Shown: positions 57,200-58,552, counted from the first letter of the stretch. The stretch: 64,000 nucleotides of DNA from an uncultured Gammaproteobacteria bacterium (GCA_963714975.1 CAVQQD010000003.1:128001-192000), one strand, 5' to 3'. Notes: generated from the letters alone by a model not told the origin. Numbers and translations: made by a program.

Positions 57200-58552
57200 A
57201 TGCAGTCGTGGCTCACCCACATCGAGAGCATTCATCCCCTGGCAATTGAGCTGGGGTTGGAGCGGGTGGGCAAGGTTGCACGAAAGTTACAGGTAACTGA
57301 GTTTGACTGCCCCGTGATTACAGTGGCAGGTACCAATGGCAAAGGGACTTGTGTGGCGTTTTTAGCTGAGATACTGCAACAAGCAGGCTATCACGTGGCC
57401 ACTTATACTTCCCCTCATTTGTTAGACTTCAAAGAACGTATTCAAATTAATGGTCAACCGCTCGCCGCAGCAGATTTACTGCGGGCTTTTGCCCAAGTGG
57501 AACAGGTCAGAGAGCAAACCCTGCTGACTTACTTCGAGTTCACCACTTTGGCGGCGTTGTGGGTATTTAAGCGCATTCGATTCCCTGAACTCCCGCCGTC
57601 CCTGCAGGATGCAGGGATCCAGCCGACAGGGACGTTAAAGCGTCCGGATGCGGTGATCTTAGAAGTAGGCCTAGGTGGTCGTCTGGATGCGGTGAATTGT
57701 GTGGAATCGGATGTGGCAGTTATAACCACCATCGCCCTCGATCACCAAGAATGGCTGGGTGATACCCGCGAAGCCATCGGCCAGGAAAAGGCCGGTATTT
57801 TTCGCGCCAATAAACCAGCAATTTGTGGTGAAGTGGCTCCTCCTGGTGCTATTTTCGCTGCCGCAGAGGCCATTGGCGCTCGGCTTTCCTGCCTCAATCG
57901 CGATTTTTCTTATATGCAAGACGCCGCAACTTGGAGTTGGCGCACTGCGGATAGGCATTTACACGCGCTTCCAATTCCGCACTTACCATTACAGAATGCC
58001 GCAACCGCTTTGATGGCGCTGCACTGTCTGCATGATCGCTTGCCAGTAAGTACTGCAGCTATCTGCCAAGGACTCTCCAAAGCTTTTGTCCCGGGGCGGT
58101 TTCAAAAATGCCTCGTCGTCCCTGCAGGATGCAGGGATCCAGTTGACAGGGATGTTAAAGCTTCACGTCAAATAATCCTAGACGTAGCCCATAACCCAGC
58201 TGCCGCCCAGTATTTGGCTAATCGGTTACAAGCAGAGCCCAAGTTAGGAAAAACTTTGGCAGTGGTCAGTATCTTCGCTGACAAAGACATTCCTAATATT
58301 TTAGCGCCCTTACTGCCGCTAGTAGATGAATGGTATGTGGCCGGTTTGGATGATCTACCCCGAGGAGTTCCGGCTGCGAGCCTTGCCCAGCATTTAAGTA
58401 ATCTCAATGTTTCGCATTACACCACTCACTCAACAGTGCTTGCTGCTTTTACCAAAGCCATGAGTGAGTGCGAAGAGCAAGACAGTATCTTAGTCTTTGG
58501 ATCGTTCCATACTGTGGCGCCAGTCTTGGCTTGGCTGCAACGGAACTGCTAA
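57200..58552 (+). CDS. folC: Bifunctional dihydrofolate/folylpolyglutamate synthase with two repeat-derived insertions
   Basis: VAGTNGKG, YTSPHL, LEVGLGGRLDAVN, PGRFQ, LDVAHN, VFGSF. Confidence 0.96.
   Translation: MQSWLTHIESIHPLAIELGLERVGKVARKLQVTEFDCPVITVAGTNGKGTCVAFLAEILQQAGYHVATYTSPHLLDFKERIQINGQPLAAADLLRAFAQVEQVREQTLLTYFEFTTLAALWVFKRIRFPELPPSLQDAGIQPTGTLKRPDAVILEVGLGGRLDAVNCVESDVAVITTIALDHQEWLGDTREAIGQEKAGIFRANKPAICGEVAPPGAIFAAAEAIGARLSCLNRDFSYMQDAATWSWRTADRHLHALPIPHLPLQNAATALMALHCLHDRLPVSTAAICQGLSKAFVPGRFQKCLVVPAGCRDPVDRDVKASRQIILDVAHNPAAAQYLANRLQAEPKLGKTLAVVSIFADKDIPNILAPLLPLVDEWYVAGLDDLPRGVPAASLAQHLSNLNVSHYTTHSTVLAAFTKAMSECEEQDSILVFGSFHTVAPVLAWLQRNC
57594..57641 (+). repeat. Family A half-element in frame within folC (insert 1)
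   Basis: CGCCGTCCCTGCAGGATGCAGGGATCCAGCCGACAGGGACGTTAAAGC. Confidence 0.88.
58114..58169 (+). repeat. Family A half-element in frame within folC (insert 2)
   Basis: CGTCGTCCCTGCAGGATGCAGGGATCCAGTTGACAGGGATGTTAAAGCTTCACGTC. Confidence 0.9.

What the first reader, a model, noticed from the sequence alone, without database searches (positions are those of the whole stretch)
57594..58169. Two independent in-frame insertions of an intergenic palindromic repeat into folC
Seen: the left half of the family A repeat (intergenic copies at 40833, 47347, 54578) occurs twice inside the uninterrupted folC ORF, read in different frames (PPSLQDAGIQPTGTLK and VVPAGCRDPVDRDVKAS). Known: FolC normally runs LWLFKxxxLDVVILEVG and PGRFQxxxxxPRVILDVAHN, so both are extra segments of ~15-21 aa. 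Coding-sequence palindromes are described as Rickettsia RPEs. Inference: this is an analogous peptide-generating repeat system in a Coxiellaceae-like lineage, with inserts tolerated in surface loops and trimmed to half elements.
Basis: partly seen in the sequence, partly recalled or inferred. Interest (0 to 1): 0.85.

Follow-up and report, generated by a model that had tools for sequence, protein, structure and literature searches.

The report
Palindromic repeat inserted twice in folC
A small hairpin-forming DNA repeat that is scattered through this bacterium's genome has landed twice, in frame, inside the folate-enzyme gene folC and adds two extra loops to the protein; this is real, but it is one more example of a kind of repeat already described in Rickettsia and other bacteria.

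Summary
folC (window 57200-58552, 450 aa) holds two 51-nt copies of one repeat (57594-57644, 58114-58164; 90% alike), read in different frames. They add about 21 and 14 residues that 29 of 29 orthologues from related genomes and 119 of 119 database homologues lack. An AlphaFold model puts both in loops of an otherwise normal FolC fold (TM 0.94 to E. coli FolC).

The repeat fits the described CGTC-tagged REPs (Di Nocera et al. 2013), the superfamily that includes Rickettsia RPE-4 and RPE-6. Each unit is a CGTC tag, a 9-bp stem, a short loop and a CCA tail. Units usually sit as about 93-nt inverted pairs. The folC copies are half-pairs.

I found 73 loci in the 2.56-Mb genome. 18 lie inside long ORFs, among them CysRS, an acetyl-CoA-synthetase-like enzyme, Lhr, ArgJ, DprA, RsmA and NRPS genes. 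Four other genera of the order carry the repeat.

I found no target-site duplication and no RAYT, so what moves it is unknown.

Intragenic REPs, including two hits in one gene, are already in print, and this scan has reported in-frame repeats elsewhere in this same genome. It is a new member of a known kind, of modest interest.

The parts
57200..58552 (+). folC (dihydrofolate synthase / folylpolyglutamate synthase), intact 450-aa ORF and the only full-length copy in the genome
   Evidence: The AF2 model has mean pLDDT 93.3 and TM 0.94 (normalised to the target) to 1W78.
57594..57644 (+). Repeat half-copy 1 (CGTC-type REP unit plus half of the dimer spacer), read at frame offset 1 as PPSLQDAGIQPTGTLKR
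   Evidence: nhmmer places it at 57595-57643, profile positions 2-50, 35.3 bits. It keeps an 8-bp hairpin as ssDNA, -12.3 kcal/mol.
57584..57646 (+). Extra protein segment 1, residues 129-149 (21 aa), between helix 111-124 and strand 151-155. Its first residues (PEL, preceded by IRF) are not repeat-derived and have no other match in the genome.
   Evidence: Absent from 29 of 29 orthologues and 119 of 119 homologues. Block pLDDT is 79-81. The upstream 36-mer is unique in the genome.
58114..58169 (+). Repeat half-copy 2, read at frame offset 2 as (L)VVPAGCRDPVDRDVKASRQ
   Evidence: nhmmer profile positions 1-56, 48.1 bits. Its nearest copies are in other genes or loci: C3:583584-583634 (96% over 51 nt) and C2:969751-969797 (98% over 47 nt).
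58115..58156 (+). Extra protein segment 2, residues 306-319 (14 aa net), a loop between strands 302-306 and 323-328 at the start of the C-terminal domain
   Evidence: pLDDT for block 311-320 is 61.
54578..54670 (.). Full-length intergenic inverted dimer of the same family (93 nt)
   Evidence: It folds as ssDNA at -40.8 kcal/mol, z -11.2.
40833..40928 (.). Full-length, diverged intergenic copy
   Evidence: 31.6 bits
47357..47416 (.). Partial intergenic copy (profile positions 1-60)
   Evidence: 43.3 bits
5335..5419 (.). Copy that forms the C-terminal tail (residues about 815-843 of 855) of the ppsA ORF (window 5299-7863, minus strand)

Best explanation
Two half-copies of a dispersed CGTC-tagged REP-type palindromic repeat sit inside folC and are translated as extra loops. 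Each unit is an unpaired CGTC tag, a 9-bp stem, a 3-4-nt loop and a CCA tail. The units normally occur as about 93-nt inverted pairs around a structured spacer. Shown: the repeat family, its copies, the in-frame reading, the absence of the segments from all orthologues examined, and the loop position in a predicted structure. Inferred: the repeat spreads as selfish DNA by an unknown enzyme (no dedicated transposase is known for CGTC REPs, and none was found here). It lands anywhere. Only copies that keep the frame, carry no stop codon and fall in tolerant places (loops, inter-domain linkers, protein ends) survive selection. The element suits this because it is GC-rich and open in more reading frames than chance gives. 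The folC copies are most likely two separate insertions of one sub-type. They either entered as half units or lost the second half by deletion at the palindrome centre. No function for the extra peptides needs to be assumed.
For: The repeat is real and dispersed. The 26-mer core has 24 matches in the genome against 0 for the reversed control. A profile built from 12 copies gives 131 hits, which merge into 73 loci. A strict structural scan (C/TGTC + 9-bp stem with at least 8 pairs + loop of 3-5 + CCA) gives 71 units against 2 in the reversed sequence. The stems appear in variants that keep pairing: CCCGGCA/TGCCGGG, CCTGGCA/TGCCAGG, CCCTGCA/TGCAGGG, CCCGCGG/CCGCGGG.

The folC segments are extra. 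29 of 29 orthologues from related genomes lack both. None of 119 further homologues has an insert at either site. E. coli FolC aligns around both.

The gene looks functional. The ORF is intact, it shares all 38 invariant columns of a 49-sequence alignment, and it is the only full-length copy in the genome. The AF2 model has pLDDT 93.3 and TM 0.94 to 1W78, with lower confidence only at the inserts.

The pattern is genome-wide. 31 of 73 loci lie in open frames of at least 180 aa (28 ORFs): 18 internal, 7 at the C-end, 6 at the N-end. Pfam names the hosts. Orthologues lack the segment in CysRS (5 of 5), the Acs-like enzyme (4 of 4), Lhr (4 of 4), ArgJ (2 of 2) and DprA (5 of 5). RsmA matches split around the insert in 4 of 5 relatives.

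The element is compatible with coding. 26 full-length copies average 3.35 open frames of 6, against 2.0 for shuffles and 1.7 for random genomic windows. Their GC is 58% against 42-45% for the three contigs.

The two copies look independent. They use different frames, and copy 2 is closer to copies in other genes (96-98%) than to copy 1 (93%).
Against: No empty-site allele exists. The closest FolC in 5.8 billion proteins is 56% identical, so neither the time nor the direction of the events is directly seen.

Insert lengths do not equal repeat lengths. Segment 1 is 63 nt with only about 50 nt of repeat, plus a unique 5' piece. Segment 2 is 42 nt net with 56 nt of repeat match. Extra deletions, or uncertainty in the loop alignment, must be assumed.

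Copy 1's nearest relative in the genome is copy 2, so an intragenic copy event is not excluded.

There is no evidence that the protein is made or active.

The excess of half copies among internal coding loci is only a trend: 12 of 36 partial against 6 of 37 full-length.

Up to four NRPS/formyltransferase copies carry nearly the same peptide and may be one insertion spread by gene duplication, which lowers the count of events.
Confidence: 0.85

Rival explanations
1. One insertion, then an intragenic copy: only one REP half-unit entered folC, and the second arose from it by ectopic gene conversion or duplication within the gene.
For: Copy 1's best match in the genome is copy 2 (93% over 45 nt). 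Both have the same orientation and both end near the palindrome centre.
Against: The copies are read in different frames and have unrelated flanks. Copy 2 is more like copies at C3:583584-583634 (96%) and C2:969751-969797 (98%) than like copy 1.
Confidence: 0.1
2. Exapted function: the inserts are kept because they do something. The retained 8-bp hairpin could act in the mRNA (pausing, stability), or the loops could serve as a new protein surface.
For: Both half-copies keep the arm hairpin (z about -2.8). Di Nocera et al. argue that many REPs act as RNA elements (PMC3733652, abstract and discussion passages).
Against: The inserted peptides differ by frame and share nothing but their origin. 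The same repeat sits in unrelated proteins at unrelated places. No conservation across species can be shown, because no relative shares the inserts.
Confidence: 0.08
3. Assembly artefact: the repeat copies were put into folC by misassembly of a metagenome.
For: The genome is an incomplete 3-contig assembly (93.75% complete). Its contig ends overlap as strain variants. Public contigs cover only window 57200-57610 of folC.
Against: Two artefacts would each have to keep the frame and avoid stops. The same holds for 16 further internal copies. One 151-nt public contig runs without a mismatch from folC into the first 17 nt of copy 1 (X1 record 2), although it may come from the source sample. The rsmA insert is present in both of two 96.9%-identical overlapping contig ends.
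Confidence: 0.03
4. folC is a decaying gene that tolerates junk because folate is obtained from a host.
For: The genome encodes type IV secretion parts, a WipA-like phosphatase and ankyrin repeats, which fit a host-associated life. Other genes look damaged (metG split).
Against: The ORF is intact and every invariant residue of the family is kept. The model is confident outside the inserts. Clearly essential genes (cysS, rsmA) carry the same repeat in frame.
Confidence: 0.04

Closest known systems
CGTC-tagged REPs (Di Nocera, De Gregorio & Rocco 2013, BMC Genomics 14:522, PMC3733652; I read the abstract, sections 6, 13 and 14, and passages of sections 15-17)
   Same: An unpaired terminal CGTC/TGTC tag, a stem of 8-9 bp (here 9), a short loop and a CCA tail. 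The units are mostly arranged as inverted dimers with conserved structured spacers. No dedicated transposase is known. Intragenic in-frame copies occur, including two insertions in one gene (R. conorii uvrB, O. terrae uvrA) and insertions in tRNA synthetases and helicases.
   Different: The paper finds CGTC repeats mainly in Alphaproteobacteria; this host is a gammaproteobacterium. Loops here are 3-4 nt against 4-5 nt in the paper. The first stem pair is G.T, where the paper describes A/T pairs in the first two positions. Which of the four CGTC families it fits could not be decided without the paper's Figure 2.
Rickettsia palindromic elements (RPE; Ogata et al. 2000, 2002; seen only as cited in PMC3733652 and in passages of PMC10969869)
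   Same: Palindromic repeats inserted in frame in unrelated housekeeping genes. They are read in several frames and are compatible with the protein fold. RPE-4 and RPE-6 are themselves CGTC-4 and CGTC-1 REPs according to PMC3733652 section 6.
   Different: The classical RPE-1 is longer (about 150 bp) and has a different sequence. The host lineage is different. Here many coding copies are half units of about 50 nt.
REPIN/RAYT systems (GTAG-tagged REP doublets with a REP-associated tyrosine transposase)
   Same: Inverted doublets of short hairpin units, singletons that look like remnants of doublets, no target-site duplication, and lineage-specific stem variants.
   Different: The tag is CGTC, not GTAG. 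No RAYT was found: there are 3 PF01797 hits, and the one whose product and neighbour I examined is an IS200/IS605 TnpA next to a TnpB gene, with no inverted repeat in its flanks. No family A locus lies within 2 kb of any of the three.
QMITE1 and QMITE2 of Coxiella burnetii (Wachter et al. 2018, PMC5896051; I read the abstract and sections 7 and 10)
   Same: Small non-autonomous repeats in a Legionellales-type gammaproteobacterium that overlap the 3' ends of genes.
   Different: QMITE1 is 300-400 bp and QMITE2 150-190 bp, both with direct repeats at their ends, and QMITE2 carries a GTAG REP. The element here is about 93 nt, CGTC-tagged, without flanking direct repeats, and sits deep inside ORFs.

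Membership tests
CGTC-tagged REP superfamily | Unpaired CGTC (or TGTC/CCTC) motif at one end of the unit | tested here: met
   Copies begin CGTC-GTCCC.... folC copy 2 has CGTC; copy 1 has CGCC, one change. The structural scan required C/TGTC: 71 units against 2 in the control.
CGTC-tagged REP superfamily | Stem of 8-9 bp with a short (4-5 nt) loop | tested here: met
   The stem is 9 bp (GTCCCNGCA / TGCNGGGAT) and keeps pairing in at least four variants. Loops are 3-4 nt, slightly shorter than described. ssDNA folds show the hairpin in both folC copies.
CGTC-tagged REP superfamily | Short unpaired tail, consensus CCA | tested here: met
   ...GGGAT-CCAG in the consensus and in both folC copies. 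The tail CCA was required in the scan.
CGTC-tagged REP superfamily | Units mostly arranged as inverted dimers | tested here: met
   27 loci match the profile end to end as inverted pairs of about 93 nt with a conserved spacer that forms a hairpin. Whether these are the paper's 'HH' or 'TT' type could not be decided without its figures.
CGTC-tagged REP superfamily | Assignment to one of the families CGTC-1 to CGTC-4 by consensus | not testable with these tools
   The consensus sequences are in Figure 2 of PMC3733652, and figures are not held.
Rickettsia palindromic elements (as a phenomenon) | Repeat copies translated in frame inside conserved genes and absent from orthologues | tested here: met
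   FolC 29 of 29, CysRS 5 of 5, Acs-like 4 of 4, Lhr 4 of 4, ArgJ 2 of 2, DprA 5 of 5.
Rickettsia palindromic elements (as a phenomenon) | Insertion sites compatible with the fold (loops, surface) | tested here: inconclusive
   Both folC inserts lie between secondary-structure elements, with lower pLDDT, in a model that otherwise superposes on E. coli FolC. Solvent exposure and distance to the active site were not computed. The other host proteins were not modelled.
[quoted passage not shown] | Target-site duplication flanking the element | tested here: not met
   Among 27 full-length copies, at nine boundary offsets, at most 3 have matching flanks of 2 nt, at most 1 of 3-5 nt, and 0 of 6-8 nt.
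[quoted passage not shown] | Terminal inverted repeats shared with a full-length IS in the genome | not tested
   I did not search for a parent IS with the same ends.
REPIN/RAYT | A single-copy RAYT (Y1 transposase) gene flanked by the family's REPs | tested here: not met
   PF01797 gives 3 near-identical hits, two of them with an internal TAG. The one examined is NCBIfam IS200/IS605 TnpA beside a TnpB gene, with no inverted repeat in its flanks. No family A locus lies within 2 kb of any of the three.
QMITE1/QMITE2 (Coxiella burnetii) | Length of 300-400 bp or 150-190 bp with flanking direct repeats | tested here: not met
   The element is about 93 nt without flanking direct repeats, against the description in the PMC5896051 abstract. 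Sequences were not compared, because none was available to me.

The most novel reading that the evidence does not exclude
In this lineage the roughly 50-nt half unit (one CGTC hairpin plus half of the spacer) is itself the piece that moves or is copied, and one young sub-type (...CAGTTGACAGGGATGTTAAAG...) goes preferentially into coding DNA. Three of its four closest members are in genes: folC twice and a virB4-like gene. That would make this genome a live case of ongoing loop creation in essential enzymes, in a gammaproteobacterial order where related genomes keep the same repeat between genes. In G002, 0 of 22 sampled loci lie in a long ORF. In G004, 3 of 19 do, all near an ORF's upstream end.
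Probability: 0.2. Interest if true: 0.5.

Novelty: new member of a known kind. Interest (0 to 1): 0.3.

Why it matters
It gives a dense case of repeat-derived protein segments in a gammaproteobacterium: 18 internal in-frame copies in 2.56 Mb, with two in one small, structurally well-known enzyme. FolC has solved structures and a simple complementation assay, so it is a convenient test bed for how much foreign loop a conserved enzyme tolerates. The family is shared by five of the nine genomes of the order, each with its own stem variant, which could help to find the still unknown enzyme that spreads CGTC-tagged REPs. It does not reveal a new kind of system.

Tried and rejected
Sequencing runs. 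Only three soil-metagenome runs of one study hold small shares of folC (0.06-0.18 of the words), and no RNA holder is listed. Laid on folC, their contigs cover only 57200-57610, so neither insert is spanned. One contig crosses the left junction of copy 1 by 17 nt.

Closer relatives. The search for homologous proteins found nothing above 56% identity, so there is no empty-site allele. The search for related loci in genome contigs returned only distant FolC genes (34-45%) and did not name the lineage.

RAYT hypothesis: rejected.

DUF559 nuclease as the mover, a lead from earlier notes. The one intact DUF559 gene (C2:141322-141630) is bracketed by a different, BoxC-like repeat, not by family A. 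It is therefore not supported for this family.

MITE reading: no target-site duplication.

QMITE identity: sizes do not fit.

Rfam: no family matches the repeat at gathering threshold. The only window matches are the rRNA operon and two tRNAs.

Unique piece upstream of copy 1: no other match in the genome.

Half against full copies in coding DNA: only a trend.

Failed calls. Ogata 2002 (PMC186582) is not held. One search failed on a stop codon in one reference, and one search failed on wrong coordinates. Both were re-sent without that item.

Full report
OBSERVATION. Window 57200-58552 (+) is one uninterrupted 450-aa ORF. It is FolC: phmmer against solved structures gives E. coli FolC 1W78 at E 4e-99 and Yersinia FolC 3N2A at 2.5e-96. 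Inside it, the repeat finder reports a single direct pair, 57594-57644 and 58114-58164, 51 nt, 90% identical, 520 nt apart. The shared 26-mer occurs only at these two places in the window, even with 3 mismatches allowed, and none of 100 shuffles gave two matches. The copies start 394 and 914 nt after the start codon, so they are read in different frames, as ...PPSLQDAGIQPTGTLKR... and ...VVPAGCRDPVDRDVKAS....

THE REPEAT FAMILY. The window is C3:128001-192000 of a 2.56-Mb assembly in three contigs. The 26-mer has 24 matches in the genome at up to 3 mismatches, and the reversed control has none. Twelve complete copies align over about 93 nt. A profile built from them gives 131 nhmmer hits; because the element is palindromic, these merge into 73 loci. 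One pair of loci, at the C1 end and the C3 start, is the same place seen twice, because these contig ends overlap over 1866 bp at 96.9% identity.

Each end of the element is CGTC, then a 9-bp stem, a 3-4-nt loop, the return stem and CCAG. The two ends face each other across a roughly 35-nt spacer that is itself an imperfect palindrome. A strict scan for C/TGTC + 9-bp stem (at least 8 pairs) + loop of 3-5 + CCA finds 71 units against 2 in the reversed genome. The stems come in variants that keep pairing. A full intergenic copy folds as single-stranded DNA at -40.8 kcal/mol (z -11.2). The two folC copies keep only the 8-bp arm hairpin (-12.3 and -9.4 kcal/mol, z about -2.8). They match profile positions 2-50 and 1-56 of 92, that is one unit plus the first half of the spacer.

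THE SEGMENTS ARE EXTRA. I took FolC from 29 related genomes and aligned them. All 29 lack both segments. One (L013) has an unrelated 7-residue insertion at the first site. E. coli FolC aligns as two blocks that skip query 128-148, with a 15-residue gap at the second site. A search of 5.8 billion proteins found nothing closer than 56% identity. Among the 119 best homologues, none has an insertion at either site, though one (P0024) has a 25-residue insertion immediately after the second site.

The net extra lengths are 21 residues (129-149) and 14 residues (306-319). They do not equal the repeat lengths. The first residues of segment 1 come from a unique sequence found nowhere else in the genome. 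The 56-nt repeat match at site 2 exceeds the 42-nt net gain. Small deletions or loop misalignment must therefore be assumed.

THE PROTEIN. With a 49-sequence alignment, AlphaFold2 gives mean pLDDT 93.3 and pTM 0.92. Segment 1 lies between helix 111-124 and strand 151-155 (block pLDDT 79-81, with a short helix at 133-137). Segment 2 is the loop between strands 302-306 and 323-328 (block pLDDT 61). Everything else is above 88, apart from residues 11-20. Foldseek places the model on E. coli FolC 1W78 with TM 0.94 (normalised to the target) and rmsd 2.2 A. The query shares all 38 invariant columns of the alignment, and no second full-length folC exists in the genome. I could not compute solvent exposure.

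GENOME-WIDE PICTURE. For each of the 73 loci I asked whether any frame is open across it and how far that frame runs. 31 loci lie in open frames of at least 180 aa (28 ORFs). 18 of these are internal (at least 30 aa on both sides), 7 are within 30 aa of the C-end, and 6 are within 30 aa of the upstream end, where they may lie before the true start. The other 42 have no long frame.

Pfam names the hosts:
- Internal copies: CysRS, an acetyl-CoA-synthetase-like enzyme, Lhr helicase, ArgJ, DprA, RsmA, KdpC, a VirB4-like ATPase, an LptA-like protein, three large NRPS genes and a formyltransferase-domain ORF.
- C-terminal tails: PpsA (in this window, 5335-5419), MetRS, OtsA/B, a TraG/VirB4-like protein, a WipA-like phosphatase, a condensation-domain protein and KdpC.

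Orthologues from the five closest genomes lack the segment in CysRS (5 of 5), the Acs-like enzyme (4 of 4), Lhr (4 of 4), ArgJ (2 of 2) and DprA (5 of 5). RsmA matches split around the insert in 4 of 5 relatives. KdpC gave one partial match only and stays open. Four NRPS/formyltransferase copies encode almost the same peptide and may be one event multiplied by gene duplication.

Full-length copies are open in 3.35 of 6 frames on average, against 2.0 for shuffles and 1.7 for random genomic windows. They have 58% GC, against 42-45% for the three contigs. Partial copies are internal to ORFs more often than full ones (12 of 36 against 6 of 37), which is only a trend.

RELATIVES. The order holds 9 species genomes in the collection. 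The 26-mer (up to 3 mismatches) is present in 5 of them, counting G000, and the reversed control is 0 everywhere. Each genome has its own dominant stem variant, with 67 matches in G002 and 19 in G004. The four genomes without a match include three that are only 63-67% complete.

I fetched 20 places from G002 and 17 stretches from G004, the latter covering all 19 matches there. In G002, 0 of 22 loci lie in an open frame of at least 150 aa. In G004, 3 of 19 do, all within 6-31 aa of the frame's upstream end. This sample is biased towards near-consensus copies, so it shows only that young copies in those genomes are intergenic. In G000, by contrast, the 11 matches with 0-1 mismatch include the two folC copies, the virB4-like copy and the kdpC tail.

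WHAT MOVES IT. Flanks of 27 full-length copies show no target-site duplication, so it is not a typical MITE. PF01797 (Y1 transposase) has three hits. The one examined is an IS200/IS605 TnpA next to a TnpB gene, with no inverted repeat around it. None of the three is near a family A copy, so no RAYT was found.

Following a lead from earlier notes of this scan, I looked for DUF559. The one intact gene (C2:141322-141630) is bracketed by 47-71-nt inverted repeats of a different, BoxC-like family. That does not explain family A. The mover stays unknown, in line with the statement in PMC3733652 that CGTC REPs lack a dedicated transposase.

COMPARISON WITH WHAT IS KNOWN. Di Nocera et al. 2013 (PMC3733652; I read the abstract, sections 6, 13 and 14, and passages of 15-17) define CGTC-tagged REPs by the terminal CGTC/TGTC motif, 8-9-bp stems, 4-5-nt loops and CCA tails, mostly arranged as inverted dimers. 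They state that R. conorii RPE-6 and RPE-4 are CGTC-1 and CGTC-4. They report intragenic copies in several species and note that single elements or dimers can be inserted twice in one ORF. They list tRNA synthetases and helicases among the hosts. [quoted passage not shown]

The element here meets the tag, stem, tail and dimer criteria. Its loops are a little shorter. I could not assign it to one of the four families, because the figure is not held, and I could not see Additional file 3, which lists all host genes.

A 2024 review (PMC10969869, passages) calls the frequency of in-frame RPE fusions unusual and says a similar process may have occurred in other prokaryotes. QMITE1 and QMITE2 of C. 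burnetii are larger and built differently (PMC5896051, abstract and sections 7 and 10). Ogata et al. 2000 and 2002 were seen only as citations; PMC186582 is not held.

ARTEFACT CHECK. Public runs hold only small shares of folC, and their contigs cover 57200-57610. One 151-nt contig runs without a mismatch 17 nt into copy 1, but it may come from the source sample. Stronger arguments come from the assembly itself. Eighteen internal copies all keep the frame. The rsmA insert is also present in both overlapping strain-variant contig ends; the C1 version has a 1-nt indel inside the repeat that breaks the frame.

VERDICT. The thing belongs to a described superfamily, its behaviour (in-frame copies, even two per gene) is in print, and this scan already reported the same phenomenon on other parts of this genome (e1-1522326, e1-751960, e1-751961). 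It is a new member of a known kind. Interest is 0.3.

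Noticed in passing
G000 C1:450258-452119 and C3:10-1865 (outside the window): The end of contig C1 and the start of contig C3 overlap over 1866 bp at 96.9% identity, which points to strain variants or a redundant assembly join. Both carry rsmA with the repeat insert. The C1 version has a 1-nt indel inside the repeat that breaks the frame.
   Followed up: partly
G000 C2:141322-141630 (L226:1355-1993): An intact DUF559 (Vsr-like) nuclease gene is bracketed by 47-71-nt inverted repeats (up to 100% complementary) of a different GC-rich family (CCCTCTCCCCC...GGGAGAGGG). 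A similar sequence is nested beside a weak family A match inside a 1140-aa ORF at C1:392647.
   Followed up: partly
G000 C3:192167-192250 (167 nt beyond the window end): A 28-residue stretch is 82% identical to FolC residues 418-445, apparently a stray fragment of the folC 3' end about 5.6 kb downstream of the gene.
   Followed up: no
G000 C2:82801-84627: metG looks split. A full-length repeat sits just before an ATG that opens a MetRS-like N-terminus in a frame that stays open for about 98 aa past the repeat. The main 508-aa open frame starts at profile position 60 of the MetRS domain in another frame and ends in a repeat-derived tail. This could be a frameshift, a sequencing error or a pseudogene.
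   Followed up: no
G000 C3:860716-861552 (kdpC): kdpC carries two copies. One is internal. The other is a full-length copy at the C-end that itself holds a nested insertion of another small palindromic element (153 nt in all) and supplies the last 50 or so residues.
   Followed up: partly
Proteins P0002, P0003, P0005, P0007, P0011, P0013, P0024, P0030 and others: 19 of 119 FolC homologues from metagenomes carry their own unique insertions or extensions of 8-56 residues at other positions. One (P0024) lies directly after the second site used here, and some have REP-like peptide motifs. Their DNA was not examined.
   Followed up: no
window 5335-5419: A family A copy forms the C-terminal tail of the ppsA ORF (window 5299-7863, minus strand; repeat-derived residues about 815-843 of 855).
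   Followed up: partly
G002 and G004: Each related genome has its own dominant stem variant of the repeat (G002 ...CCCGGCAGGAAGCCGGG..., 67 matches; G004 ...CCTCGCAGGATGCGGGG..., 19 matches), which fits family-wide inheritance with lineage-specific turnover. One G004 copy lies about 1.4 kb from that genome's folC.
   Followed up: partly
window 17967-23103: A complete rRNA operon (16S, two tRNAs, 23S, 5S).
   Followed up: no
G000 C2:659161-660794 (L039:1486-3098), plus C2:509016-509378 and C1:106334-106696: An IS200/IS605-type element (TnpA plus a divergent TnpB). The Y1 transposase occurs three times in the genome, and two copies have an internal TAG.
   Followed up: partly
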